This document shows positions 3,901 through 51,315 of a stretch of DNA of 64,000 bases, in pieces. The notes under the pieces are model-generated. The model made no database searches. It was not told the origin of the DNA and saw only the letters and a program-made list of their open reading frames with translations. Source of the DNA: a virus (taxonomy: Duplodnaviria; Heunggongvirae; Uroviricota; Caudoviricetes); the IMG/VR virus record IMGVR_UViG_3300016476_001281, one strand, 5' to 3'. A program made the translations under genes and the position numbers. Numbering within the stretch: position 1 is the stretch's first letter; every line of letters begins with the position of its first letter.

Positions 3901-4991
3901 TCTCTTACTTCTGTATCATCTCTCCAACCATTATTCCAAACTCCATTTTCCCAAATACCAGCTCTAAAATAACCATTACCTATTTTTGATGATAAACTAT
4001 ATGTAACACCATTTGTAACAGATTGATATGTATATACAGAATTATCAATTTCAACATGTAAATCACTTACAGGTACTACTTGTAAATTATTTATAGGATT
4101 ATATCCACCCACAATTTTAATATTAGACAAACGACCAACATATGGGTATGTTCTAGGTCCTACCATACTAGGTATAAAAACTAGATACTTTTTAGTACCA
4201 TCAATATTAGTTGCAGATAAATTAACATCACTAAATGAACCACTAGCAGTAAGTGAGTGTATAGGATTACCCCAAGATGCAGTTTTACCAAACTTTAAAT
4301 CATTTTGATTAACTAAGTACATTTCAATCATATCATTTGAACTACCACCAATGGTTAAAAAGTCAAAATCTAAATTAAAAAAGTCATAATCTATTAAACT
4401 TGCTATATAATTATTTCTAGGTGATACCTCTTCAAGTCCAGAGCCAAAAACAGAATAAGATGGTGATATAACACTTGATGTAGATGAGAAGTACCAATTA
4501 TATGAACCAATATTATTGGTAACTTCATAACACCAACCATTTGGTTGTAATCTATGGTTAAGTGGTAAATTCAAATATCTAAACTCTCGATAACCATTAA
4601 TGAGAAAGTCAATCTCTCTCATTGTTGACTTAGTTATATAACTTGCAGTGAAAGTTTCAGGTGCACCATATCTAATAATATTTTTAGATAACTCAGTACT
4701 TATAGGATTTGCATAAGTATAAAATAGTACACCAGAAGTAGTATCAATATCTCTTGTCTCTGACGCCACTCCTGATTTAAAAGGTGCTGAGAATTTTATA
4801 GATAATGAAGATATTGAAGAACCAGTAACACTTGTTATAAATTGATAATTTTTATTTTGATTATATAAAAATTGATCATTAAATTCATTATCTATGTAAT
4901 AAAGACCATCTATTGGAAGTCTAGTTACCCCTAAATTAAATACATAATTCCAAGTAGGAATTGAGTTTCTATCAAAAAAATAATTTGTCAT
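990..4991 (-). CDS. giant virion structural protein (putative tail fibre/adhesin) with W-x-NG-x-[FW] repeats
   Basis: 1333 aa and rich in N, S, T and Y. Repeats include GIWENGVWNNGW and GGFFNGYFSGVWNNGLFKG. The same repeat family occurs in ORF 6971..11926. Confidence 0.5.
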   Translation of the reverse strand: MTNYFFDRNSIPTWNYVFNLGVTRLPIDGLYYIDNEFNDQFLYNQNKNYQFITSVTGSSISSLSIKFSAPFKSGVASETRDIDTTSGVLFYTYANPISTELSKNIIRYGAPETFTASYITKSTMREIDFLINGYREFRYLNLPLNHRLQPNGWCYEVTNNIGSYNWYFSSTSSVISPSYSVFGSGLEEVSPRNNYIASLIDYDFFNLDFDFLTIGGSSNDMIEMYLVNQNDLKFGKTASWGNPIHSLTASGSFSDVNLSATNIDGTKKYLVFIPSMVGPRTYPYVGRLSNIKIVGGYNPINNLQVVPVSDLHVEIDNSVYTYQSVTNGVTYSLSSKIGNGYFRAGIWENGVWNNGWRDDTEVRDFDDVYSSVLYAYDISWKIKISGSTYSCKSFKVGDKVAIGNIVAIDINENRKLIRDYYTITDIDTDLTWIEVSLDTTFPYRRIEKDSPNHKIKVTKNVWLSGGFFNGYFSGVWNNGLFKGYPKITEMFNTHWIDGFFNGGHFNSNYPEFNFTDIKATDNCQYNNTTLVFGNGHGLLPGDYIIIEKGLIVINNTPTLLNAGYNGITRVLAVNGNDVTIDKQFLEAIISNGTKVLEPGKVTRYTATAVIQNFKFYDTNRSKLKSNESSISSSIFSFNSWIDTNYDVTRSVSIGRDFKTYEPLTGKSVSRNNLYGYPTYDVLSSASRFRNSFDLNYGLYKLGTKYKLFTDFIGDAASFNEPFDPALPNISNFYNAGWTFSYRNSGLNDTLDQHLKFNRSEAIISTNNASNNVSLFSPTIQNYIDSGVTGNELYITATNSGAVLNNNNVNVSKSRYSVVEFDVVTYSVSNNSFKQTNQQPYDIITTISEPLSVVATQSILNNTIITSTYSQSLSILANDLINLAVEINLDCTGSDLGNIIINLISPANKIINLKNSNGFINNPISLTSQTRFTNTIFDFSSTRLLSTGNQPYSGTFSMEKQLGIGATGYSSNSTNISDLFTNEYTNTQGIWTIYIQNNQNNTNVYPTLGNWKLITTYKNYIDDPSINITPIVDIPILHLNNLNYEIASQPLGNGQSLPIYKRMSYLPIAQNINHLTVQNSFRFDSIEKTSADRYNGFGTNTIKKKYEYFYNKTDLMMTIQGNGDMGASQSMLVLDNIKMYETDMIPFFKYFEDANIYKGIQVPYEGVAPNIDYLNSDFVFIDNITIGLDSINNTEIGNVACLPSSINIITASFSVVTNVPTNVGTASATINGNVTIQGNIILSSCGFYLSTSTTPSTSQSNIVYTQTNSGSLVRNLTDLIPNTTYYYQTYAITQETTTSGQSLGLTTTFGDVLSFTTIALPPDYSGDYSVDYSH

Positions 4992-42687: not shown

Positions 42688-43188
42688 TTGATGGAACCAA
42701 CAGAATATTTATTTGAACTAATTAATAAATCAAATATATCTCTATTAGGTTACACATTTAAAGAAGAAAGAATTAAAGATGAAATTATTTCTAAAGTTTC
42801 TCATATTGAGTTACCAGAAATAAATTCATCTTTTTCTATGCTTTCTTATATAAGAGATTCTAAAATTGATACAATATTAGATAATAAAACTGAAACACCA
42901 ACTCATTTTTTATTAGACATCAATAATTTTATGGTAGGTAGAGGTGAAATAAGTAGAGCTAATGTAATAAATAATGCACTAAGAGAAATTGCTATGCAAT
43001 TAATAGATACTAATTTTAAACTATTAATCACTTGTCCAATATACAATAATGCAGGTAATGATGAATACAATTTCAGTGGTGGTAATACAGGATTATATAT
43101 GGCTGACTTTGTGGGAATAATTAGAGAAGATAGAGTAAGAATAATGAAAAACCGTTATGGTATGCATCAAATAGATATAAAATTATAA
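42688..43188 (+). CDS. hypothetical protein
   Basis: 166-aa ORF. Confidence 0.4.
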   Translation: MMEPTEYLFELINKSNISLLGYTFKEERIKDEIISKVSHIELPEINSSFSMLSYIRDSKIDTILDNKTETPTHFLLDINNFMVGRGEISRANVINNALREIAMQLIDTNFKLLITCPIYNNAGNDEYNFSGGNTGLYMADFVGIIREDRVRIMKNRYGMHQIDIKL

Positions 43189-44256
43189 TATTTCTTTTTT
43201 TAAAATACTTTCTATATTATTAATATCCTTATAATTTATTTCAACTAACTTTATATTATTTAATTTACAATACTCTCTTTTGATATTATCTCTTTTAATA
43301 ATTTCATCAAATTCATTTACACCACCAAAACAATCTACTGGTTCATAATGTTGTCTACCATTAAACTCTATACAAGTATTATAATCAATAAGATAAAAAT
43401 CAAAAGGAAGTTTATTTTTATAAACACATCCTATAAATTTTTTCTGTGATATGAATTTTATATTATTTTCTATTAGAAATTTTCTAACTTTTATCTCACC
43501 TTTACTTTCCCTACATATTGGACAACCCGAACCTGAGAAATGATTAGTTGGTTTTTGTTCAAAAACTCCATGTTTTTTACATATTATTTTTATTGGTATA
43601 TTAAATTTTTTATAATCAGATAAAGAATAATCATATTTATTATTATGAATATCATTTGATTTTTTTTCAAAATCATCAAAATTAAAAATTCTACCACCAC
43701 ATTTTTGACAACCTGAACCACTCAAATGGTTCATAACTTTTTGACTAAATTTACCATGTTTACTACACTCAATATCAATATAGTCACTATATAAATATTT
43801 ATCTCTATCTAAATTATATTTATATCTATCTTTATGTTTGGCCTTAAATATCTTCAATAATTTATCTTTACTACTAAATTTACCACCACATTTTGGACAA
43901 CCCAATCCTCTTAAATGACCTCCTGCATTTTGTTCAAAAATTCCATGTTTTCTACATATTATTTTTACCTTATCTCTATTTCTCTCATAATTGACTAATG
44001 AATAATCATATTTATCATTGTGTATTATTTTTGACCTTTTTATAAATTCATCATTTGTCAAAGATTTTTTACCCTTTGTACATTTTGTACAACCACCACC
44101 TCTTTTATGATGGTGTGGAGTTTGACTAAAAATTCCATGTTTTCTACATATAATATTAACTTTTGTTGTATTATTTATATAGTTAACTAATGAGTAATCA
44201 TATAAATCATCATGCACTTTCTTAAATTGTTCAATAACTTTTTCATTACTATTCAT
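43183..44256 (-). CDS. putative homing/nicking endonuclease: four Zn-ribbon repeat modules plus a C-terminal Vsr/DUF559-like (PD-(D/E)xK) domain
   Basis: Four repeats of about 50 aa of the form KYDYSL.NY....IIC.KHG.F.Q....H..G.GC.KC. The C-terminus carries IEFNGRQHY...KRDNIKREYC...IKLVEI, resembling the Vsr-like endonuclease fold. Confidence 0.45.
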   Translation of the reverse strand: MNSNEKVIEQFKKVHDDLYDYSLVNYINNTTKVNIICRKHGIFSQTPHHHKRGGGCTKCTKGKKSLTNDEFIKRSKIIHNDKYDYSLVNYERNRDKVKIICRKHGIFEQNAGGHLRGLGCPKCGGKFSSKDKLLKIFKAKHKDRYKYNLDRDKYLYSDYIDIECSKHGKFSQKVMNHLSGSGCQKCGGRIFNFDDFEKKSNDIHNNKYDYSLSDYKKFNIPIKIICKKHGVFEQKPTNHFSGSGCPICRESKGEIKVRKFLIENNIKFISQKKFIGCVYKNKLPFDFYLIDYNTCIEFNGRQHYEPVDCFGGVNEFDEIIKRDNIKREYCKLNNIKLVEINYKDINNIESILKKEIL

Positions 44257-44284: not shown

Positions 44285-44719
44285 ATGATAATAAGTAATA
44301 AAAAGGCATACTATTCATATAATATACTTGAGGAATTTGAAGCCGGTGTTGTATTGGTTGGTAGTGAAGTAAAATCAATCAGGATGGGTAATGTTACTTT
44401 AGCAGATTCTTTCATTTATTTAAAAGATGGTGAAGTATGGTTAAAGAATATGAATGTTGCAAGATATAAGTCTTCACATCCATTAACTAAACATGATGAG
44501 AACAGAGATAAGAAATTACTTTTAAATAGAAAGGAAATCAATAGAATAGAAAGAAAATTACAAGATAAAGGAACAACTGCTATACCTTTAAGTATTTTTT
44601 TAAAAAAGAATAGAATTAAGATTAAAATTGGTGTAGCAACTGGGAAAAAACTTTATGATAAAAGAAATTCTATAAAGGAGAAAGACCTAAGAAGAGAACA
44701 ACAAAGAAATATAGCTTAA
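44285..44719 (+). CDS. smpB: SsrA-binding protein SmpB
   Basis: KKAYYSYNILEEFEAGVVLVGSEVKSIRMGNVTLADSFIYLKDGEVWLKNMNVARYK...DKKLLLNRKEI aligns with the conserved SmpB core. Confidence 0.8.
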   Translation: MIISNKKAYYSYNILEEFEAGVVLVGSEVKSIRMGNVTLADSFIYLKDGEVWLKNMNVARYKSSHPLTKHDENRDKKLLLNRKEINRIERKLQDKGTTAIPLSIFLKKNRIKIKIGVATGKKLYDKRNSIKEKDLRREQQRNIA

Positions 44720-45069
44720 TGAAAAATAACATAGAAGACTTTTTTGATAAACTACATAGTTCAGGTAGTGAAGAAGAAGTAATAGAAAACTTAAAAAGGA
44801 TTATCAAAAGTTTCAATGTATCTACATACAAAGAAAAACTTATGAGTAATCCTTATTTTAGTTTATTGATAAATGAAATCAAAGGTGATATATTATTTGA
44901 GATAGGTTTAATCAGAGATAATATAGAAAGTGAAATAAGAGGTATAGATGATGCATTAAGTAAACCAATTAGTGTAAATGATTTTAACAGACTAAAAGAC
45001 TTAAAAAGGGAATGTATGGGTTTGCTTTATGAGATAAATGATAGAATTAATGATTTAATATTACTTTAA
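44719..45069 (+). CDS. hypothetical protein
   Basis: 116-aa ORF. Confidence 0.4.
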   Translation: MKNNIEDFFDKLHSSGSEEEVIENLKRIIKSFNVSTYKEKLMSNPYFSLLINEIKGDILFEIGLIRDNIESEIRGIDDALSKPISVNDFNRLKDLKRECMGLLYEINDRINDLILL

Positions 45070-46662
45070 CATACTATTAATAAATCTCTCAATTATATCT
45101 AACTTTTCCATTGTTTCATCATATTCTTCCTCTACACCATCACAATAACTAATATATTTTTTTATACCACCAGTTTCAAAATTACCTAAAATATCTTGAT
45201 AACAAGTAGATAATTTATTTTTAGAATCAAACATAAAGTTAAGTATGGTGTCAAGTTTATATCTAATACCTAATAAATCATGTATATTTTCAATATCAGT
45301 ATTAAGAATATAATTATTAATATTTTCTCCTATTTTTAATACTCTTTGTACAATAGCTATAAGTTTCTCATCACCTGAGTTAAGTACAGCATCTAAATTT
45401 TCTTTATATATTTTAGTATATTGATTAGAAGATTTTTTATAATTACTAAATTCTGATATAACTCTATTAAAATAATATTCTTGATCATATTCAGGTTCAG
45501 TAATAAGACAATATATAGGTTCAATAATATTAGTTAATGCACTTGCATTATTACGAGAGTACATATGAATTAAAATAAATTTATGACAATTTATACTATT
45601 TACTAAATTACCTAATTTAGAGAAGTCAATTGTTTCTTTTTCTATTCCAAATTTATTAATCAATTTACTCATATAATTGTTAATATTAATCTGTTTTATA
45701 TCATAATCTGACATAAGAGCAGTTGCACCTTTTCTTGCACCCTCTCTACTTCTTTTAATACTATAAGTATCAGGAATAGAAAGTAATCTGTCTAAATAAA
45801 GAATAATTGCAAAATCTGAATCTTTAATAACATCTTTAATACTAAATTGATTATGAAGATTCCAATCTATAACATCACCATCATTATTCATAGGTTTATT
45901 ATAATCTGCTAAATTAGGTCTGTGTTTAACATCATCAGCTTTATTTTCTTGTCTTAATTCCTGTTTATCCTTAATATAAAGATGTAATTTAAAATGGTCT
46001 CCATCTGCTTCAAAGTTATTACTGATAATACGTCCTAATCTAAAATTATATGAATAATTATTAGCAAAATCAGGTCTATTATCAGGTGAAACACTATCAC
46101 TTTTATAATCATTATAAATAAAAATTGCATCATTATCAACAAATATCTGACCTTTAGCTATTCTTCTTTCCTTTGAACTTTTATCACCTAAGGTACACAA
46201 TACTGTATCACCTGTTTTTAATTTCATATAATCCAACACTGATACTAACTTACCTTTTGTTATACCCAATTCATCTTTAATATACTCTAATTGTTCTTCA
46301 TTAAAATCAGAATTTTTAGTAGAGTAGTCATTTTTTAATGGTATATAAGGTGTTCTTAAATCACTTACTGCAGTTTTACCTAAAAATCCTTTTTCAAGAG
46401 AAAACCAAAATTTAATACAATAAATATCAAGTCTATTATTAATAGGTTTAGTATTCTTAACTTTAATTGCCTTTGAGGTCTTATAATACTTTATATCATC
46501 TTCACTAATCTTTGAGATAGGGAAGTCATAATCTTTCATTAGCTTTTTTAATTCATTAGAAAAACTATTGGCACTATACTGGTCTACATTTTTTGTTAAG
46601 AACTTAATTGCACTTGTAATCACTTGTGATTCATATGCCTCAAACAATTTAATATATTTCAT
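45061..46662 (-). CDS. hypothetical protein
   Basis: 533-aa ORF. Confidence 0.4.
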   Translation of the reverse strand: MKYIKLFEAYESQVITSAIKFLTKNVDQYSANSFSNELKKLMKDYDFPISKISEDDIKYYKTSKAIKVKNTKPINNRLDIYCIKFWFSLEKGFLGKTAVSDLRTPYIPLKNDYSTKNSDFNEEQLEYIKDELGITKGKLVSVLDYMKLKTGDTVLCTLGDKSSKERRIAKGQIFVDNDAIFIYNDYKSDSVSPDNRPDFANNYSYNFRLGRIISNNFEADGDHFKLHLYIKDKQELRQENKADDVKHRPNLADYNKPMNNDGDVIDWNLHNQFSIKDVIKDSDFAIILYLDRLLSIPDTYSIKRSREGARKGATALMSDYDIKQININNYMSKLINKFGIEKETIDFSKLGNLVNSINCHKFILIHMYSRNNASALTNIIEPIYCLITEPEYDQEYYFNRVISEFSNYKKSSNQYTKIYKENLDAVLNSGDEKLIAIVQRVLKIGENINNYILNTDIENIHDLLGIRYKLDTILNFMFDSKNKLSTCYQDILGNFETGGIKKYISYCDGVEEEYDETMEKLDIIERFINSMLK

Positions 46663-46980
46663 AACATATATATTAAAATAATTTTTTCAAATTAAAACTT
46701 TTTAGTATATTTGCATAACAATAATGAGTTACTAAGGTTGACAACATAGAATAAATTAAAAAGTCACATAATCTTAGTAATGTTTATGGTAGTAAGTAGC
46801 TAACAAATAAGTTAACATCTTTGATAAAATTAGTGAACTACCTTGTATTTATAATATATGAAAAAGTAAAGATGTTAGTATTGAAATTGTGATGGTGATA
46901 GATACTACAATTATTTATGACAAATAGTATAAGTTATTAGAATATAGAGAATAACTTATCAAAATTAAAACCAACACTAT

Positions 46981-47133
46981 GAAGAAATAAACTGCGCAGA
47001 ATGGTAACACTGCGAAACCAAGGACACAAATCCATTAAAAGGTAATCCCAAGTGATTAGATCATAAAAGTTAAGGTTAGGCTCTCGGATTCCGGCCATAC
47101 TTAACAGGCGTTCCACCCTCTTCATATTTTTTT
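46981..47133. ncRNA. candidate structured non-coding RNA of unknown class (GC-richer island in a 530-nt intergenic gap)
   Basis: Nested helices include CGCAG...CTGCG, GTTAAG...CTTAAC (6 bp) enclosing GGC...GCC, and GGA-cacaaa-TCC. The segment ends in a T-run. The only ORF here uses GC-rich codons (cgc, ctg, gcc, cga) that are atypical for this genome. Confidence 0.35.
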
Positions 47134-47164
47134 AGAAAAATTAGGTAGATTAAAATAATAGCTG

Positions 47165-47172
47165 TACTTTTG
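47165..47172 (+). promoter_or_regulatory. Bacteroidetes -7 box TACTTTTG upstream of the yqeY-like gene
   Basis: Matches TAnnTTTG about 20 nt before the ATG at 47193. Confidence 0.4.
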
Positions 47173-47192
47173 CAGTATAAAAATTAGAAATT

Positions 47193-47597
47193 ATGAATTT
47201 AAAAGAAAAAATTAGCAAAGACTACATGACTGCATTTAAAGAAAAAAATACAGTTGTAAAAAACTTACTTTCAGTTGTAAAAGGTGAAATCCAAACTATT
47301 GAAAAAAATACTGGTGTTGATTGTCTTTCTGATGCAGAGGTAATCAAAATCCTTAATAAAACTGCAAAATCTTTAAATGAAGTTATTGCAACAAGTGGTG
47401 ATGAAGAATCTAAATTACAATTAACAATTGTAGAAGCATTACTTCCAGCTTCTTTAACAAGAGAAGATATTGTTGCTAAAGTAAATGAAATTGTAGCATC
47501 TGGTGTAACTAATGTTGGTGGTATTATGAAAGAATTTGCAACTTTACAAGTTGATAGAAAAGTAGTATCAGAAGTTATCAAAGAAGTATTAGCATAA
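47193..47597 (+). CDS. yqeY: GatB/YqeY-domain protein
   Basis: The whole 134-aa protein parallels the YqeY family: MNLKEKISKDYMTAFKEKN...LSDAEVIKILNK...EALLPASLTREDIVAKVNEIVASG...MKEFATLQVDRKVVSEVIKEVL. Confidence 0.7.
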   Translation: MNLKEKISKDYMTAFKEKNTVVKNLLSVVKGEIQTIEKNTGVDCLSDAEVIKILNKTAKSLNEVIATSGDEESKLQLTIVEALLPASLTREDIVAKVNEIVASGVTNVGGIMKEFATLQVDRKVVSEVIKEVLA

Positions 47598-47910: not shown

Positions 47911-48396
47911 ATGTATATAGTTTGGAGAGAACCATTCAAAAACTCTTTCTCTGAGACACAAGGTGATGGTTACTTTGTGTCTTATAGAGATAAGTGTTCT
48001 GATAACTATTCAAAGAATTGGTATGATGCTAAAAAGTATAAAACTATAGTTCCTGCAATGACAAGACTTGGTTTAACTTGTCCAAAAGATCTAACATCTT
48101 TAGAACACTTTTTTAGAATAAACAAAATAGATCAAACATCATACAATAGAGATAAAGTTTTATCTGACATATTAGATACTGAAAATGAAGTAAGTATTAA
48201 TTTTAGTAAAGGTAGAATTGATAAGATTGATGATAATGGATTTATCAGTAGTGCTGATGAAGATATTTTAGAATATCTTAATAAGATAATCAATACTAAT
48301 CTAAAAAAGAAAGTAAAAATAAAACTTTGTGATTTAGAAAGAAGTTATCAAGAACCTAAAAAAAGTGGAGTTGATACTTGGGAAGGATTTTATTAA
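47911..48396 (+). CDS. hypothetical protein
   Basis: 161-aa ORF. Confidence 0.4.
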   Translation: MYIVWREPFKNSFSETQGDGYFVSYRDKCSDNYSKNWYDAKKYKTIVPAMTRLGLTCPKDLTSLEHFFRINKIDQTSYNRDKVLSDILDTENEVSINFSKGRIDKIDDNGFISSADEDILEYLNKIINTNLKKKVKIKLCDLERSYQEPKKSGVDTWEGFY

Positions 48397-48402
48397 TTGG
48401 CA

Positions 48403-48588
48403 CTAAAAGTTTTAAAGTCTTTCACTTTTGTTGGAAGACCACCTGTGTCAACACCTTTAGTCCATTCATCATTGAATACCCATTTTTTATCTTTGGGTGC
48501 ATTCTTTTTTGATTTGTACTTTTTACGCATTGCAAAAATGTATTTAAGCTGTGATTTTGAACGAACTGGCATAAACTATATATAAAAA
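48403..48588 (-). CDS. small highly basic protein (tentative; nucleic-acid-binding?)
   Basis: Minus-strand reading MPVRSKSQLKYIFAMRKKYKSKKNAPKDKKW... is 61 aa. It is Lys-rich with genome-typical codons. The plus-strand ORF 48397..48585 is hydrophobic and low-complexity, so it is probably spurious. Confidence 0.25.
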
Positions 48589-49096: not shown

Positions 49097-49169
49097 TCTC
49101 TCGAAGCTCATGTGGACGGGCACTCAGCTTTTAACCGAGGGGTAGTGGGTTCGAGGCCCATCGGGAGAA
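49097..49169 (+). tRNA. tRNA-Lys(UUU), tentative (one mismatch in anticodon stem)
   Basis: Acceptor TCTCTCG/CGGGAGA, T-arm GTGGG-TTCGAGG-CCCAT, anticodon loop CTTTTAA. Confidence 0.5.
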
Positions 49170-49174
49170 CAAAT

Positions 49175-49260
49175 ACAGATTAGCATAATGGTATGCACCA
49201 GGTCTCCAAAACCTTGGCACCTTAGGGTGGTAGGAAAGAGTTCGATTCTCTTAATCTGTG
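49175..49260 (+). tRNA. tRNA-like, 86 nt: Trp-type anticodon loop (CCA) with an extra 4-bp variable-arm hairpin
   Basis: Acceptor ACAGATT/AATCTGT, D-stem GCAT/ATGC, anticodon loop CTCCAAA, T-arm AAGAG-TTCGATT-CTCTT. The extra hairpin is CACC-ttag-GGTG. Confidence 0.4.
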
Positions 49261-49267
49261 CAAAAAA

Positions 49268-49340
<73 letters not shown>

Positions 49341-49350
49341 CAGAAATATG

Positions 49351-49438
49351 GTGTTTGTAACCGGTAAAGGCAGCCGACCAGATTGTGGATCTGGAATGAA
49401 TTAATTTTCTAATGCAGGTTCGAATCCCGTCTTACACC
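49351..49438 (+). tRNA. tRNA-His-like (anticodon arm CCAGA-TTGTGGA-TCTGG, GUG) with ~19-nt insertion; possible pseudo/variant
   Basis: The 3' end GCAGG-TTCGAAT-CCCGT-CTTACAC-C is near-identical to tRNA-His at 49855. The 5' acceptor pairs poorly, and there is an extra AATGAATTAATTTTCTAAT segment. Confidence 0.35.
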
Positions 49439-49444
49439 CAACAA

Positions 49445-49517
49445 GGAGCTGTGGCAGATGTGGTCATTGCGCTGGACTGAAAATCCAGAGGAACGGGATC
49501 GTAACCCGTCGGCTCCA
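49445..49517 (+). tRNA. tRNA-Phe(GAA), variant T-loop
   Basis: Acceptor GGAGCTG/CGGCTCC, anticodon arm CTGGA-CTGAAAA-TCCAG, T-arm ACGGG-ATCGTAA-CCCGT. Confidence 0.6.
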
Positions 49518-49524
49518 CAAATAT

Positions 49525-49596
49525 GCAGATTTAGCTGAGACGGTTTAGCGTAGGAGTGAAGTCCCTAAGAGATCGGTTCGATTCCGATAATCTGCA
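49525..49596 (+). tRNA. tRNA, anticodon loop GTGAAGT (GAA-like; isotype uncertain)
   Basis: Acceptor GCAGATT/AATCTGC (perfect), D-stem GCTG/TAGC, anticodon stem TAGGA/CCCTA with an A-C mismatch, T-arm ATCGG-TTCGATT-CCGAT. Confidence 0.5.
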
Positions 49597-49605
49597 CAAG
49601 TATAT

Positions 49606-49676
49606 ACGTCATTGGTGAAATGGTATCATCCTGGTCTCCAAAACCAGTGTTCCAGGTTCGAGTCCTGGATGGCGTG
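49606..49676 (+). tRNA. tRNA-Trp(CCA)
   Basis: Acceptor ACGTCAT/ATGGCGT, anticodon arm CTGGT-CTCCAAA-ACCAG, T-arm CCAGG-TTCGAGT-CCTGG. Confidence 0.7.
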
Positions 49677-49682
49677 CAATAT

Positions 49683-49767
49683 TCCCTCTTAGCTCAGTTG
49701 GTTTGCATTAGCTTAGAGCACCTGACTTTTAATCAGGGGGTCGTAGGTTCGAATCCTACAGGGGGAA
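49683..49767 (+). tRNA. tRNA-Lys(UUU) with ~12-nt D-loop expansion
   Basis: Acceptor TCCCTCT/AGGGGGA, D region GCTCAGTTGG-tttgcattagct-TAGAGC, anticodon arm CCTGA-CTTTTAA-TCAGG, T-arm GTAGG-TTCGAAT-CCTAC. Confidence 0.5.
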
Positions 49768-49778
49768 CAAATAAATTT

Positions 49779-49852
49779 GACTTCGTAGCTCAGTTGGTAG
49801 TAGCACCTCACTTTTAATGAGGGGGTCGTGGGTTCGAGTCCCACCGGGGTCA
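49779..49852 (+). tRNA. tRNA-Lys(UUU)
   Basis: Acceptor GACTTCG/CGGGGTC, anticodon arm CCTCA-CTTTTAA-TGAGG, T-arm GTGGG-TTCGAGT-CCCAC. It is a tandem paralogue of 49683. Confidence 0.75.
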
Positions 49853-49854
49853 CT

Positions 49855-49928
49855 GTGTAGGTAGCTTAATTGGTCAAAGCACTTGGTTGTGAGCCAAGGG
49901 ATTGCGGGTTCAAGTCCCGTCTTACACC
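49855..49928 (+). tRNA. tRNA-His(GUG)
   Basis: Acceptor GTGTAGG/CTTACAC, D-stem GCTT/AAGC, anticodon arm CTTGG-TTGTGAG-CCAAG, T-arm GCGGG-TTCAAGT-CCCGT, discriminator C. Confidence 0.8.
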
Positions 49929-49934
49929 CAAATT

Positions 49935-50024
49935 AGTCTGATGATATAGTGGCATTATTTGGTCGTCGATCCAGTTTACTGGGGTATCTTCGGCAGAACA
50001 CAGGTTCGATTCCTGTTCAGACTA
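49935..50024 (+). tRNA. tRNA-like, 90 nt; internal fold unresolved (one possible fold has anticodon UUA with a pyrimidine at position 37)
   Basis: Perfect acceptor AGTCTGA/TCAGACT and T-arm ACAGG-TTCGATT-CCTGT. The interior holds a tight hairpin TCCAG-ttta-CTGGG and about 17 extra nt. Confidence 0.4.
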
Positions 50025-50056
50025 CTAAGTAAAAAAGTAAAAACAAAAGAATAAAA

Positions 50057-50070
50057 TTTTAATATATAAG
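50057..50070 (+). promoter_or_regulatory. conserved phage box TTTTAATATATAAG (candidate late promoter)
   Basis: Same box as 48893, 50435 and 22987. It ends 2 nt before the ATG at 50073. Confidence 0.45.
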
Positions 50071-50072
50071 TT

Positions 50073-50150
50073 ATGAAAACAATTATAAGTACATCGTCAA
50101 GTTCTTCAAGTCGCTCAAGTAAATTGAGGGAGGTTCTTGTGTATTCATAA
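50073..50150 (+). CDS. small ORF (25 aa, Ser-rich) in the second promoter-sORF-terminator mini-cassette
   Basis: Encodes MKTIISTSSSSSSRSSKLREVLVYS. The cassette architecture is paralogous to that at 48910. Confidence 0.3.
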   Translation: MKTIISTSSSSSSRSSKLREVLVYS

Positions 50151-50173
50151 TTTTTTAAGTAAAAAGTTATTTG

Positions 50174-50209
50174 AAACCCTTGAACCAAAAGTTCAAGGGT
50201 TTTTTTTAT
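50174..50209 (+). terminator. rho-independent terminator
   Basis: Hairpin CCCTTGAAC-caaaa-GTTCAAGGG followed by TTTTTTTT. Confidence 0.7.
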
Positions 50210-50210
50210 T

Positions 50211-50296
50211 GGTTCTATAGTTTAATTGGATAAAACACCTGGTTACGACCCAGGAGACAGGAATGCTTAGTGTAGGTTCGAATCCTACTGGAATCA
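50211..50296 (+). tRNA. tRNA-Arg(ACG) with an unusually long (~17-nt) variable region
   Basis: Acceptor GGTTCTA/TGGAATC, D-stem GTTT/AAAC, anticodon arm CCTGG-TTACGAC-CCAGG, T-arm GTAGG-TTCGAAT-CCTAC. Confidence 0.55.
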
Positions 50297-50303
50297 CAAA
50301 TAT

Positions 50304-50386
50304 GGAGGGTACCGTCAAGGTGGCAAACTGGGCTTGAACCCCAGGGGTGCGGGTAACTGCACGGGATTCGATTTCTCTACCCTCTT
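50304..50386 (+). tRNA. tRNA-Ser(UGA), type II
   Basis: Acceptor GGAGGGT/ACCCTCT, anticodon arm CTGGG-CTTGAAC-CCCAG, variable arm TGC-gggtaact-GCA, T-loop TTCGATT. Confidence 0.7.
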
Positions 50387-50434
50387 CAAAAATTATTATT
50401 GTTCAATTTGTTTTAGAACTTTTTCACTTTTTTA

Positions 50435-50448
50435 TTTTAATATATAAG
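50435..50448 (+). promoter_or_regulatory. conserved phage box TTTTAATATATAAG upstream of the HNH endonuclease gene
   Basis: Identical 14-mer to the box at 50057. The ATG follows 18 nt downstream. Confidence 0.45.
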
Positions 50449-50466
50449 TTAAAAATTATTAAAATT

Positions 50467-51135
50467 ATGAAAGAAAAAATTATAGAATTGAGAAAAAGTG
50501 GATTATCATATAATAAAATAGCAGATATACTAGGATGTTCAAAAGGCACAATATCATATCATTGTAGTAATGAAAATTTACAAAGTCCAATTTTAAAAAT
50601 AAGTGATGAATTAATAGAAAATATTAAAAATGATAGCAAATTAAAAATAAAAGAAATTGCCAAAAAGTATAATGTTAGTGAAAGTACTGTAAGTAAATAT
50701 TCATTACCAAAATATTCTAAAAAAGAATATAAAAAATGTAGTAATTGTGGAGAGGTTGCAAAAAATAAATATTGTTCTAATAAGTGTTCACAAGAGTATA
50801 AACACAAAGAAGCATACTATGATTTTTTAAATAATAATCATGATTATTGTAGAGGAAATTATACACCTAAAGCATTTAAAGATTTTTTTATAAAAGAACA
50901 AAATAATAAATGTTCTATATGTGAAATAGAACCTGTTTGGATGGATAAGAAGTTAATATTTGTAATTGATCATATTGATGGTGATGCTTCTAACAATTTA
51001 AGAAGTAATATAAGAATGATATGTCCTAATTGTGATTCACAAACTGATACATTCAAATCAAAAAATAAAAACTCAAAAAGAAGAAATTATTGGAAAGAAA
51101 AAATTATAAATAATTTAGTAAATAATAGTGAATAA
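50467..51135 (+). CDS. HNH homing endonuclease with N-terminal helix-turn-helix, inserted in the tRNA cluster
   Basis: The N-terminus has an HTH (LRKSGLSYNKIADILGCSKGTISYH). The C-terminal HNH motif is CSICE...VIDHIDGDASNNLRSNIRMICPNCDSQTD. The start is the internal ATG after the conserved box. The upstream part of the tracked ORF overlaps tRNA-Ser. Confidence 0.7.
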   Translation: MKEKIIELRKSGLSYNKIADILGCSKGTISYHCSNENLQSPILKISDELIENIKNDSKLKIKEIAKKYNVSESTVSKYSLPKYSKKEYKKCSNCGEVAKNKYCSNKCSQEYKHKEAYYDFLNNNHDYCRGNYTPKAFKDFFIKEQNNKCSICEIEPVWMDKKLIFVIDHIDGDASNNLRSNIRMICPNCDSQTDTFKSKNKNSKRRNYWKEKIINNLVNNSE

Positions 51136-51212
51136 ACCATGATGGTGATTGGGTCTGCCTGGAAAGCAGTACGTACGTTTATATGTATAGGGTTCGATTC
51201 CCTTGTTCACTG
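51127..51212 (+). tRNA. tRNA-Ser(GGA), type II; 5' end overlaps the HNH stop codon
   Basis: Acceptor AGTGAAT/GTTCACT (the AGTGAATAA includes the stop codon), anticodon arm CTGC-CTGGAAA-GCAG, variable arm TAC...GTA, T-arm AGGG-TTCGATT-CCCT. Confidence 0.55.
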
Positions 51213-51221
51213 CTACATAAT

Positions 51222-51307
51222 GGAGAGTAAACCTTGATGGTGAGAGGGTCCGCCTGCTAAGCGTGAGGGTCGGGAAACTGACTGGGGTTCGATTCCCCTG
51301 CTCTCCT
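51222..51307 (+). tRNA. tRNA-Ser(GCU), type II; CCA encoded
   Basis: Acceptor GGAGAGT/GCTCTCC with discriminator T and an encoded CCA. The anticodon loop is CTGCTAA, the same loop sequence as E. coli tRNA-Ser(GCU). Variable arm GTC...GAC, T-loop TTCGATT. Confidence 0.6.
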
Positions 51308-51315
51308 CCAAATGA

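What the first reader, a model, noticed from the sequence alone, without database searches (positions are those of the whole stretch)
44285..47192. SmpB gene without a recognisable tmRNA; a GC-richer structured-RNA candidate lies 2.3 kb downstream
SmpB is normally an obligate partner of tmRNA (ssrA). I could find no tmRNA-like 5' GGGG acceptor or tag-reading-frame/tRNA-Ala-like 3' end anywhere in the window.

The 530-nt intergenic gap 46663-47192 is the only long gap without an ORF that has genome-typical codon usage. It contains a 150-nt island (46981-47133) with locally high GC, nested helices (GTTAAG/CTTAAC, CGCAG/CTGCG, GGC/GCC) and a terminal T-run.

Three explanations are possible:
- the phage SmpB acts on host tmRNA.
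- a divergent or permuted ssrA lies outside my recognition.
- the island is another phage ncRNA class; large ncRNAs such as ROOL and GOLLD are often phage-borne near tRNA genes.
Basis: seen in the sequence. Interest (0 to 1): 0.6.

Follow-up and report, generated by a model that had tools for sequence, protein, structure and literature searches.

The report
New structured RNA beside phage SmpB
The gap downstream of the phage SmpB gene holds a previously undescribed, roughly 415-base folded RNA found only in one lineage of very large phages. It is not a tmRNA and most likely acts as a regulatory leader for the translation-factor gene that follows it.

Summary
SmpB (44285-44719) is canonical. 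Neither the window nor the complete 635-kb genome of a relative (LR745206) has a tmRNA by ARAGORN or Rfam.

The element is larger than reported, about 46720-47134 on the + strand. It comprises:
- a Bacteroidetes-type -7 promoter box;
- a hairpin (P0);
- a pseudoknot module (46782-46881);
- two further hairpins;
- a five-way-junction module (46975-47134) closed by a 7-bp helix and followed by a U-run.

Both modules show strong covariation in about 50 distinct homologues. They match none of the 4227 Rfam families, and conserved-motif pattern scans found neither in 185,579 bacterial and archaeal genomes.

The RNA always lies between smpB and yqeY (or infC). Loci with only SmpB or only YqeY lack it. 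In one pair of near-identical phages, RNA and yqeY are present or absent together. Either module can occur alone, always ending in a helix plus U-run or a classic terminator just before the ORF.

Best reading: a new structured 5' leader or attenuator of the yqeY/infC unit. A trans-acting RNP with YqeY or SmpB is not excluded. A divergent tmRNA is not supported. Whether this SmpB uses host tmRNA remains open.

The parts
44285..44719 (+). smpB (144 aa), canonical SmpB with its C-terminal tail
   Evidence: Pfam PF01668 E=1e-53, residues 2-143. Matches PDB SmpB chains at E=1e-37.
46706..46713 (+). TATATTTG, a Bacteroidetes-type -7 promoter box (TAnnTTTG). It is the likely promoter of the RNA.
   Evidence: A TAnnTTTG box lies at the same relative position (about -280 from the hairpin-A motif) in 36 of 48 homologues. 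That this is the Bacteroidetes consensus rests on my own knowledge. Function is inferred.
46729..46780 (+). P0 hairpin: TTACTAAG (46729-46736) pairs with CTTAGTAA (46773-46780) and encloses a variable insert
   Evidence: Covarying by eye in the alignment (for example TCGTTAAGAC/GTCTTAACGA in L020, TACAAGAT/GTCTTGTA in L011). Not counted formally.
46782..46881 (+). 5' pseudoknot module. H1 is 46788-46793 with 46837-46842. H3 is 46799-46803 with 46830-46834. H2 (pseudoknot) is 46814-46822 with 46868-46876. The internal loop AAGUAG/GA(A) between H1 and H3 resembles a bulged-G (loop E) motif.
   Evidence: CM R1 scores 93.8 bits, E=2e-16. 89% of cells are paired, against 41-49% when partners are slid. 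12 of 20 pairs have compensatory changes, and 73 cells changed on both sides against 9-21 in controls. The loop E resemblance is my own recollection and was not tested.
46878..46905 (+). Hairpin F: GTATT/GATAC stem with an 18-nt partly conserved loop (..AAAUUGUGAUGGUGAUA)
   Evidence: The stem covaries by eye (GUGCUU/AAGUAC, GAUAUC/GAUAUC, GGUGUU/AACAUC). Not counted formally.
46930..46958 (+). Variable hairpin V (TAAGTTATT/AATAACTTA). It is lineage-specific and absent in LR745206 and many others.
   Evidence: Alignments.
46975..47134 (+). 3' five-way-junction module. Closing helix P is 46978-46984 with 47120-47126. Hairpin A is 46995-46999 with 47010-47014 (loop AAUGGUAACA). Hairpin B is 47022-47024 with 47031-47033. 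Hairpin C is 47052-47056 with 47060-47064. Hairpin D is 47069-47074 with 47100-47105 and encloses stem E, 47079-47082 with 47093-47096. The conserved single strands are AACCAAGG, CCAUUAAAAGGUAAUCC and ACAGRCGUUCC.
   Evidence: CM R2 scores 171 bits, E=3e-43. 97.5% of cells are paired against 38-54% when slid. 22 of 30 pairs are compensatory, and 162 cells changed on both sides against 8-34 in controls. Conserved U:G pairs (42/47 and 26/47 sequences) fix the + strand.
47127..47133 (+). U-run directly after the 3' strand of helix P. It is a putative termination or attenuation site.
   Evidence: Read from the sequence. A U-rich tract follows P in all homologues. The generic terminator scan does not call it, because the 'hairpin' is a 140-nt domain. 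Function is inferred.
47165..47172 (+). Second TAnnTTTG box (TACTTTTG), 20 nt before the yqeY start codon. It occurs in the window's own lineage; only L024/L044, upstream of infC, also have a box in this interval.
   Evidence: Found in 6 sequences of the window lineage plus L024/L044. Absent in the other ~40 homologues.
47193..47597 (+). yqeY-like gene (GatB/YqeY tRNA-binding domain family), the ORF that the RNA precedes
   Evidence: Pfam PF09424 E=2e-12. It lies directly downstream of the RNA in all arrangements except the infC type.

Best explanation
Window 46720-47134(+) encodes a member of a new, phage-restricted family of structured RNA. It has two separable modules: a 100-nt pseudoknot with a loop-E-like internal loop, and a 160-nt five-way junction.

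The RNA is transcribed from its own Bacteroidetes-type promoter. It forms the 5' part of the transcription unit that continues into yqeY, or into infC in some relatives.

Every architectural variant ends in a helix followed by a U-run 25-60 nt before yqeY (about 230 nt before infC). I therefore infer that it works as a cis-acting leader or attenuator. Folding of the module would close the terminal helix and stop transcription before the translation-factor gene. That folding would be stabilised by a still unknown ligand, most plausibly a translation-related factor such as YqeY itself, a tRNA or a small molecule. Failure to fold would let RNA polymerase read through.

Shown: conservation, structure, strand, position, modularity and absence of tmRNA features. 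Inferred: the promoter, termination and the ligand.

SmpB is a syntenic neighbour, not a demonstrated partner. With no phage tmRNA detectable, it presumably uses the host tmRNA.
For: 1. Real structured RNA.
- About 50 distinct homologues were collected from viral and metagenome contigs.
- Covariation statistics are strong for both modules.
- No ORF is present.
- U:G pairs fix the + strand.

2. New family.
- No Rfam hit at E<=10.
- Pattern scans with one conserved motif per module found nothing real in 185,579 bacterial and archaeal genomes.

3. Leader position.
- A TAnnTTTG box sits at a fixed distance upstream in 36/48 sequences.
- In about 40/48 sequences no such box lies between the RNA and the ORF. 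yqeY can then only be transcribed through the RNA.

4. Helix plus U-run just before the ORF in every variant.
- P plus U7 in the window.
- H2 plus U8 with the ATG 27 nt later in the PK-only L161.
- Classic terminators after the PK module in L089 and L115.

5. RNA and yqeY are gained or lost as one cassette between near-identical phages L095 and L096.

6. Not tied to SmpB alone. 39 of the 80 surveyed SmpB loci have neither the 3' module nor a tmRNA, and only one of them (L115) has the pseudoknot module. Many have no intergenic gap at all next to SmpB.
Against: - No alternative (antiterminator) pairing was identified, and no ligand is known.
- At about 415 nt the RNA is large for a leader. Its core is almost invariant across lineages whose SmpB proteins are only ~51-54% identical, which also fits a trans-acting RNA that contacts conserved machinery.
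- In the infC-type loci the ORF starts ~230 nt after the RNA. In LR745206 a 200-nt insert with a small ORF separates the RNA from yqeY.
- In the window's own lineage yqeY may have its own promoter (47165-47172), which would make the RNA a free-standing gene there.
- Co-occurrence with smpB and yqeY may partly reflect shared descent within one phage clade.
- The near-invariance of the hairpin-A loop is partly an ascertainment effect of the search pattern. Divergent members L096 and L192 have other loops.
Confidence: 0.5

Rival explanations
1. Trans-acting ribonucleoprotein RNA. The RNA is a stable non-coding RNA that assembles with the adjacent YqeY-like tRNA-binding protein, and possibly SmpB or phage bS21. 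It would act on the translation apparatus during infection, as a phage counterpart of large RNPs such as OLE. Its position upstream of yqeY would then reflect co-expression of partners, as with 6S RNA and ygfA.
For: - The RNA and yqeY form an indel cassette (L095/L096).
- The RNA is found only where smpB and yqeY or infC lie together.
- Its junction sequences are near-invariant despite ~50% protein divergence.
- All variants end in a terminator-like feature, as an sRNA gene would.
- The window lineage has a separate promoter box for yqeY.
- Literature: YqeY is reported, as preliminary evidence, to bind OLE RNA. yqeY and rpsU (bS21) often share an operon, and OLE carries an SD/anti-SD mimic bound by bS21 (PMC12054373).
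- The relative LR745206 encodes an S21-like protein.
- The 5' strand of H2 (AACACCUUU) resembles the 16S 3' tail. This comes from memory and is only a lead.
Against: - There is no direct evidence of binding.
- H2 covaries freely (AGUCUUU, CAUUCUU and others), so the SD/anti-SD likeness is not conserved.
- Most lineages leave no room for a yqeY promoter after the RNA.
- yqeY exists without the RNA in 52 of 80 viral loci, and with only one of the two modules in several others.
Confidence: 0.3
2. Highly divergent or rearranged tmRNA (ssrA). The RNA would be the SmpB partner. It would be charged and enter stalled ribosomes, with a short tag ORF such as CCA UUA AAA GGU AAU CCC AAG UGA (PLKGNPK*), whose stop codon lies in hairpin C.
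For: - It is always downstream of smpB on the same strand. In several loci it starts only ~50 nt after the smpB stop, like the bacterial smpB-ssrA arrangement.
- Its size, ~350-415 nt including a pseudoknot, is tmRNA-like.
- No other tmRNA exists in the window or in the 635-kb relative.
- The phage tRNA genes do not encode CCA, so a missing CCA is not an obstacle.
- Some substitutions in the mini-ORF look synonymous or conservative (PLRGKSK, PLKGNSK, PLKGKPK).
Against: - ARAGORN and all five Rfam tmRNA models give nothing, even at E<=10.
- The 5' and 3' ends do not pair.
- The only terminal helix (P) closes the 3' module. It has no conserved G:U at position 3 and is separated by a 14-nt strand from the nearest hairpin, so there is no acceptor/T-arm stack.
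- The mini-ORF is frame-shifted by 1-nt deletions in the whole smpB-adjacent group and is broken in L192.
- The 'tandem stop' in hairpin F has an in-frame TGA upstream in the window and is absent in L014 and L017.
- Either module can be lost.
- Related AT-rich phages L136 and L121 carry ordinary tmRNAs that ARAGORN finds at once.
Confidence: 0.05
3. Metabolite- or tRNA-sensing riboswitch. This is a specific version of the leader model. The five-way junction would be an aptamer for a small molecule or an uncharged tRNA. The pseudoknot module would be a second, tandem sensor.
For: - Conserved junction nucleotides with covarying helices are the classic aptamer signature.
- Closing helix P abuts a U-run.
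- The modules occur singly or in tandem upstream of the same gene, as tandem riboswitches do.
- The downstream genes and neighbours are translation-related: YqeY, IF3, an aaRS in LR745206 and a tRNA array.
Against: - There is no match to T-box or any riboswitch model.
- The UGGU in loop A, which could pair with an ACCA end, is not conserved in L096 or L192.
- No expression-platform alternative structure was found.
- No ligand can be inferred from one downstream gene family of unknown function.
Confidence: 0.15

Closest known systems
tmRNA (ssrA; Rfam RF00023, RF01849-RF01851, RF02544)
   Same: It is linked to smpB on the same strand. It has a similar overall length and contains an H-type pseudoknot. 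It is a GC-richer RNA island in an AT-rich genome.
   Different: It has no tRNA-like domain (no end-to-end acceptor stem, no G3:U70, no T-arm) and no conserved tag frame. Its modules are separable, it has no CM or ARAGORN score, and it sits as a leader before an ORF.
Structured leaders of translation-factor and ribosomal-protein operons (e.g. the L20 leader upstream of infC-rpmI-rplT; T-box leaders of aaRS genes)
   Same: It is a long, pseudoknot-containing 5' leader upstream of a translation gene (yqeY, or infC in some relatives). It ends in a helix plus U-run just before the ORF.
   Different: It has no sequence or CM similarity. It has no T-box sequence or specifier loop. The effector is unknown, and no antiterminator was identified.
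OLE RNA / OLE RNP of Bacillota
   Same: Both are large, highly conserved, multi-helix RNAs. The link is to a YqeY-family protein: gene adjacency here, reported preliminary binding for OLE (PMC12054373).
   Different: It is not homologous (no Rfam hit), is shorter (~415 nt against ~600 nt) and occurs in phages of predicted Bacteroidetes hosts. No OapA/B/C genes were looked for nearby, and binding is untested.
GOLLD and ROOL (large phage-associated RNAs near tRNA arrays)
   Same: It is a phage-borne large structured RNA lying 2 kb from a tRNA array.
   Different: It has no CM match in the window. A genuine GOLLD (287 bits) lies at a different locus of the relative LR745206, so this is a distinct RNA.

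Membership tests
tmRNA | Scores with a tmRNA covariance model or with ARAGORN (standard or permuted) | tested here: not met
   ARAGORN finds no tmRNA in the window, in 11 homologous loci or in the whole of LR745206. Rfam at gathering threshold and at E<=10 gives no tmRNA family.
tmRNA | tRNA-like domain: the 5' and 3' ends form a 7-bp acceptor stem with G3:U70, stacked on a T-arm | tested here: not met
   The RNA ends do not pair. Helix P closes only the 3' module. Its pair types vary with no fixed G:U, and a 14-nt strand separates it from hairpin D/E.
tmRNA | Tag reading frame with a conserved frame and C-terminal degron | tested here: not met
   The candidate frames (PLKGNPK*..KLCW**) are broken by 1-nt indels or internal stops in several lineages.
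tmRNA | Genomic linkage with smpB | tested here: met
   smpB lies upstream on the same strand in every locus with enough sequence. However, 39 of the 80 surveyed SmpB loci lack both the 3' module and a tmRNA, and only one of them (L115) has the pseudoknot module.
GOLLD / ROOL / 6S / RNase P RNA | Match to the Rfam covariance model | tested here: not met
   No match at E<=10 in 46500-47300. A true GOLLD was found only at L072 24875-25280 of LR745206.
T-box leader | Stem I with specifier loop, conserved T-box sequence with UGGN bulge, terminator/antiterminator | tested here: not met
   No RF00230 match. The UGGU in loop A is not conserved in L096 or L192.
Transcription-attenuating structured leader (riboswitch-like) | Promoter, then a conserved covarying structured domain, then a helix plus U-run, then an ORF on the same strand | tested here: met
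   All variants keep a helix plus U-run or a classic terminator 25-60 nt before yqeY, or about 230 nt before infC in that type.
Transcription-attenuating structured leader (riboswitch-like) | Mutually exclusive terminator and antiterminator folds, with a ligand-dependent switch | tested here: inconclusive
   No conserved alternative pairing was recognised in the alignments. The ligand is unknown, and biochemical tests are not possible with these tools.
OLE-like RNP (YqeY-binding large RNA) | Physical association of the RNA with a YqeY-family protein | not testable with these tools
   Only gene adjacency and the RNA+yqeY cassette indel are available. The OLE-YqeY link comes from the literature (PMC12054373).

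The most novel reading that the evidence does not exclude
The RNA is the scaffold of a phage-encoded translation-modulating ribonucleoprotein. It would be a stable ~415-nt RNA that binds the adjacent YqeY-like tRNA-binding protein, and perhaps SmpB or phage bS21. It would act on host ribosomes or on the ribosome-rescue pathway in a lineage of huge phages that carries SmpB but no tmRNA. That would make it a functional analogue of the OLE RNP, or a non-canonical SmpB partner.
Probability: 0.25. Interest if true: 0.85.

Novelty: new member of a known kind. Interest (0 to 1): 0.62.

Why it matters
Huge phages carry many translation genes, and how these are controlled is unknown. This element would be the first structured RNA family known so far only from that gene island. 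It has two covariation-supported modules, including a five-way junction with a near-invariant core. As a family it is unrelated to anything in Rfam.

If it is a leader, it would be a new regulatory RNA class whose ligand could show what these phages sense before switching on yqeY or infC. If it is a trans-acting RNA bound by YqeY or SmpB, it would give the widespread but uncharacterised YqeY family a defined RNA partner. It would also bear on why some phages keep SmpB without a tmRNA.

The work also gives a concrete result: a complete 635-kb phage genome has SmpB but no detectable tmRNA, while related AT-rich phages do encode one.

Tried and rejected
1. Recoded gene in the gap. Rejected: all six frames are full of TAA stops. 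The 62-aa minus-strand ORF (46937-47125) has no Pfam hit and is frame-shifted in LR745206.

2. Tandem stop codons (TGATAG, TGATAA, TAATAA) in the loop of hairpin F as the end of a tag ORF. Rejected: the window has an in-frame TGA upstream, the stops are absent in L014 and L017, and 1-nt length changes occur.

3. Mini-ORF PLKGNPK* ending in hairpin C. Rejected: it is frame-shifted in the smpB-adjacent group and lost in L192.

4. Permuted tmRNA with an internal ...CCA at 46972-46974. Rejected: the CCA is not conserved (TTCAAC, AACAAC) and no complementary 5' strand exists.

5. Resemblance of the stem E loop (GGUUCUCGGAUUUCGAC) to the tmRNA 5' motif GGAUUCGAC, recalled from memory. Rejected as homology: the segment forms a covarying hairpin (GGYU/RRCC) inside hairpin D.

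6. Hairpin A as a tRNA D-arm or T-box-like UGGN mimic. Weakened: the loop differs in L096 and L192, and its invariance elsewhere was imposed by my search pattern.

7. H2 as an SD/anti-SD mimic. Kept only as a lead, because H2 covaries freely.

8. Long-range pairings CCUUG/CAAGG and UUGGU/ACCAA between the modules. Rejected: not supported by the variants with AGAAGG.

9. Seven of the 17 viral pattern hits (L007, L008, L010, L012, L015, L018, L019) and the four bacterial pattern hits (L237-L240) were chance matches in coding DNA.

10. The L192 5' region (4380-4790) replaces the pseudoknot module. It matched no Rfam family.
Full report
**What is in the window**

The window is AT-rich phage DNA (27.8% GC). 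Its nearest annotated relatives are the 635-kb and 642-kb uncultured phages LR745206 and LR756502, at ~69% nucleotide identity over smpB. These belong to the Mahaphage clade and are predicted to infect Bacteroidetes (PMC7162821).

ORF 44285-44719(+) is a full-length canonical SmpB (PF01668, E=1e-53). It aligns with solved SmpB structures, C-terminal tail included.

ARAGORN and Rfam find a tRNA array at 49.1-51.3 kb but no tmRNA. A permissive Rfam scan of 46500-47300 returns only two chance-level matches. The gap 46663-47192 has no open frame under any stop-codon recoding.

**The island is part of a larger conserved RNA**

- LR745206 has the same gene order: smpB, a 123-aa ORF, a 555-aa ORF on the other strand, a gap, then yqeY.
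- The gap aligns at 70% identity over 346 nt. The flanking coding segments align at 66-69%.
- An exact 37-mer from the island recurs in four IMG/VR contigs.
- Pattern searches added 6 viral and 44 metagenome loci. This gave about 50 distinct sequences. Seven further viral hits were chance matches in coding DNA.

**Anatomy in window coordinates, + strand**

- A TAnnTTTG box at 46706-46713.
- Hairpin P0 at 46729-46780.
- A pseudoknot module at 46782-46881. H1 and H3 stack across an AAGUAG/GA(A) internal loop. H2 pairs the apical loop with a downstream strand.
- Hairpin F at 46878-46905.
- A lineage-specific hairpin V at 46930-46958.
- A five-way-junction module at 46975-47134, made of closing helix P, hairpins A, B and C, and hairpin D enclosing stem E.
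- A run of seven U at 47127-47133.

yqeY starts at 47193.

**Is the structure more than chance?**

For the pseudoknot module (28 sequences, MAFFT alignment not fitted to the structure):
- 89% of cells form standard pairs, against 41-49% when the 3' partners are slid by 1-3 columns.
- 12 of 20 pairs show compensatory changes.
- 73 cells changed on both sides, against 9-21 in the slid controls and 26 in shuffles.

For the 3' module (47 sequences aligned to covariance model R2):
- 97.5% of cells are paired, against 38-54% when slid.
- 22 of 30 pairs are compensatory, against 6-13.
- 162 cells changed on both sides, against 8-34.

That second alignment is fitted to the model, which favours the structure. 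The margin is large all the same. RNAalifold on the unfitted alignment independently recovered hairpins A, C and D, with 8 of 17 pairs compensatory.

Conserved U:G pairs (42/47 and 26/47 sequences) would be C:A mismatches on the other strand, so the + strand is the RNA. The single-sequence fold is only marginally better than shuffles. The case rests on comparative evidence.

**Is it a tmRNA?**

In favour:
- It lies downstream of smpB on the same strand in every locus that has enough upstream sequence.
- In a dozen loci it starts ~50 nt after the smpB stop codon.
- The complete LR745206 genome has 59 tRNAs but no tmRNA by ARAGORN or by Rfam across all 635 kb.
- The phage tRNA genes do not encode CCA, so a missing CCA would not exclude it.

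Against:
- No tmRNA model or ARAGORN signal appears in any homologue.
- The ends of the RNA do not pair.
- The only terminal helix, P, has no fixed G:U and is not stacked on a T-arm-like hairpin.
- The two candidate tag frames are not frame-conserved.
- The two modules can each be lost.
- Detection is not limited by base composition. The AT-rich phage contigs L136 and L121, whose SmpB is 46-52% identical to the window's, carry ordinary tmRNAs near smpB (~0.9 kb upstream in L136, ~5.3 kb in L121). These have a G3:U70 acceptor stem and ...AA tags.

I put the tmRNA reading at about 5%.

**What does the RNA travel with?**

I ran two anchored surveys of IMG/VR contigs.

Survey anchored on SmpB (293 viral loci, best 80 examined):
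- 18 loci, with SmpB 54-86% identical to the window's, have the 3' module; 17 of them also have the pseudoknot module.
- Four more (L089-L091, L115) have the pseudoknot module only.
- 23 loci have a canonical tmRNA; in 21 higher-GC ones (40-50% GC) it lies within ~200 nt after smpB. These are probably prophage ends in host ssrA.
- The remaining AT-rich loci have neither, and often no intergenic gap at all next to smpB.

Survey anchored on YqeY (85 loci, best 80 examined):
- The modules occur in 28 loci. Every one of these also has smpB upstream.
- 52 loci with yqeY but no smpB have no module.

So the RNA is confined to loci where smpB and yqeY (or infC) lie together, and it always sits between them. 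Part of this must reflect common descent within one clade. Two observations separate the neighbours:
- L095 and L096 are near-identical phages that both keep smpB. L096 has RNA plus yqeY as one ~650-nt cassette, and L095 has neither.
- In the L011 group yqeY is absent, and the RNA precedes infC by ~230 nt.

**Modularity and 3' ends**

- L089-L091 and L115 have only the pseudoknot module, followed by a textbook terminator.
- L161 and L162 have a yqeY 85-87% identical to the window's and only the pseudoknot module. There H2 is followed directly by U8, with the yqeY ATG 27 nt later.
- LR756502 (L006) and L192 have only the 3' module.
- In every architecture the RNA ends with a helix plus U-run. 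yqeY starts 25-60 nt further on, and infC ~230 nt further on in that type.
- A TAnnTTTG box lies at a fixed position upstream in 36/48 sequences. A second box between RNA and ORF exists only in the window's own lineage (47165-47172) and in L024/L044.
- In most lineages, therefore, yqeY can only be transcribed through the RNA.

**Interpretation**

The arrangement is promoter, conserved folded domain(s), terminal helix plus U-run, then ORF. This is the layout of a transcription-attenuating leader. I take that as the most likely mechanism (about 0.5). The effector is unknown.

Candidates are YqeY itself, tRNA or a metabolite. YqeY is a GatB-tail-type tRNA-binding domain; that description is established knowledge of the family and was not tested here. 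No antiterminator fold was found. That is the main gap in this model.

The main rival (about 0.3, and not exclusive) is a stable trans-acting RNA that forms an RNP with YqeY and/or SmpB. Three things make it worth testing:
- the near-invariant junction core;
- the cassette behaviour with yqeY;
- the report that YqeY is a (preliminary) partner of OLE RNA and is often co-operonic with bS21 (PMC12054373).

LR745206 does encode an S21-like protein.

**Novelty**

- Neither module matches any of 4227 Rfam families.
- Neither was found in 185,579 bacterial and archaeal species genomes; these were pattern scans with one conserved motif per module.
- Literature searches for SmpB or tmRNA in huge phages, and for yqeY-associated RNA motifs, found no description.
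- As a family it is new. As a kind of system (a structured leader or phage ncRNA) it is familiar, and no new mechanism has been shown.

Whether the phage SmpB works with host tmRNA remains open. It is the default by elimination.

**Caveats**

- The homologue set was gathered with sequence patterns from the 3' module and by anchoring on SmpB and YqeY. Members in other contexts or with divergent cores would have been missed, and the invariance of the hairpin-A loop is partly imposed by the pattern.
- The promoter and terminator assignments are consensus-based inferences.
- No expression data were available.
- The window's own complete genome was not available. The genome-wide absence of tmRNA is shown only for the relative LR745206.

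Noticed in passing
window 49097-51310: Dense tRNA array on the + strand. ARAGORN genes, with repeated Phe, Trp, His and Lys isoacceptors and several unusually long ones (86-89 nt, called Trp, His, Arg and Ser). Rfam calls two more (49702-49767, 51128-51211) that ARAGORN misses. None of the genes I read encodes CCA.
   Followed up: partly
L072 24875-25280 (LR745206, about 420,875-421,280): A full-length GOLLD RNA (287 bits, E=1e-80) lies beside tRNA genes in the 635-kb relative, at a locus unrelated to the smpB region. The window itself has no GOLLD.
   Followed up: no
L064 17639-17673 (LR745206): A DUF805b RNA motif scores just above the Rfam gathering score (38.2 against 35.6 bits).
   Followed up: no
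window 45061-46662 (-) and 44719-45069 (+): A 533-aa protein and a 116-aa protein have no Pfam family but are conserved (27-66% identity) in relatives. Together they look like an insertion between smpB and the RNA, because other lineages have smpB directly followed by the RNA.
   Followed up: partly
window 43183-44256 (-): A 357-aa protein is built of four or five repeats of a treble-clef zinc-finger-like unit (KHG.F....H..G.GC..C; weak DUF4379/DUF723 hits). Its C-terminal part is reminiscent of a small nuclease domain. Copies occur elsewhere in related contigs, so it is possibly a mobile homing-endonuclease-like gene.
   Followed up: no
window 48382-48572: A locally GC-richer stretch (0.34) is 86% identical to three related contigs, where it lies right after yqeY. 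It overlaps a lysine-rich 59-aa ORF on the minus strand (48393-48572). It is more conserved than its surroundings.
   Followed up: no
L192 4380-4790: In this contig the pseudoknot module is replaced by a different, GC-richer non-coding stretch (for example TGGGTGAAAATCCCACC) between the same promoter box and the 3' module. It matches no Rfam family.
   Followed up: partly
L136 4789-5142 and L121 185-659: AT-rich (28-29% GC) large phage contigs carry canonical tmRNA genes near smpB with unusual tags: DDTTTYRMAA and a 25-residue tag, AKVELSTWTVEDALAFVDGEYAVAA. Neither encodes CCA.
   Followed up: partly
No counterpart was found in the window.
   Followed up: no
L001 22968-23130 (LR745206): A ~200-nt insert between the RNA and yqeY contains a small ORF of about 52 aa (MMEIEWSEERLKSLYIGYCNMCSV...) that is absent from the window.
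   Followed up: no
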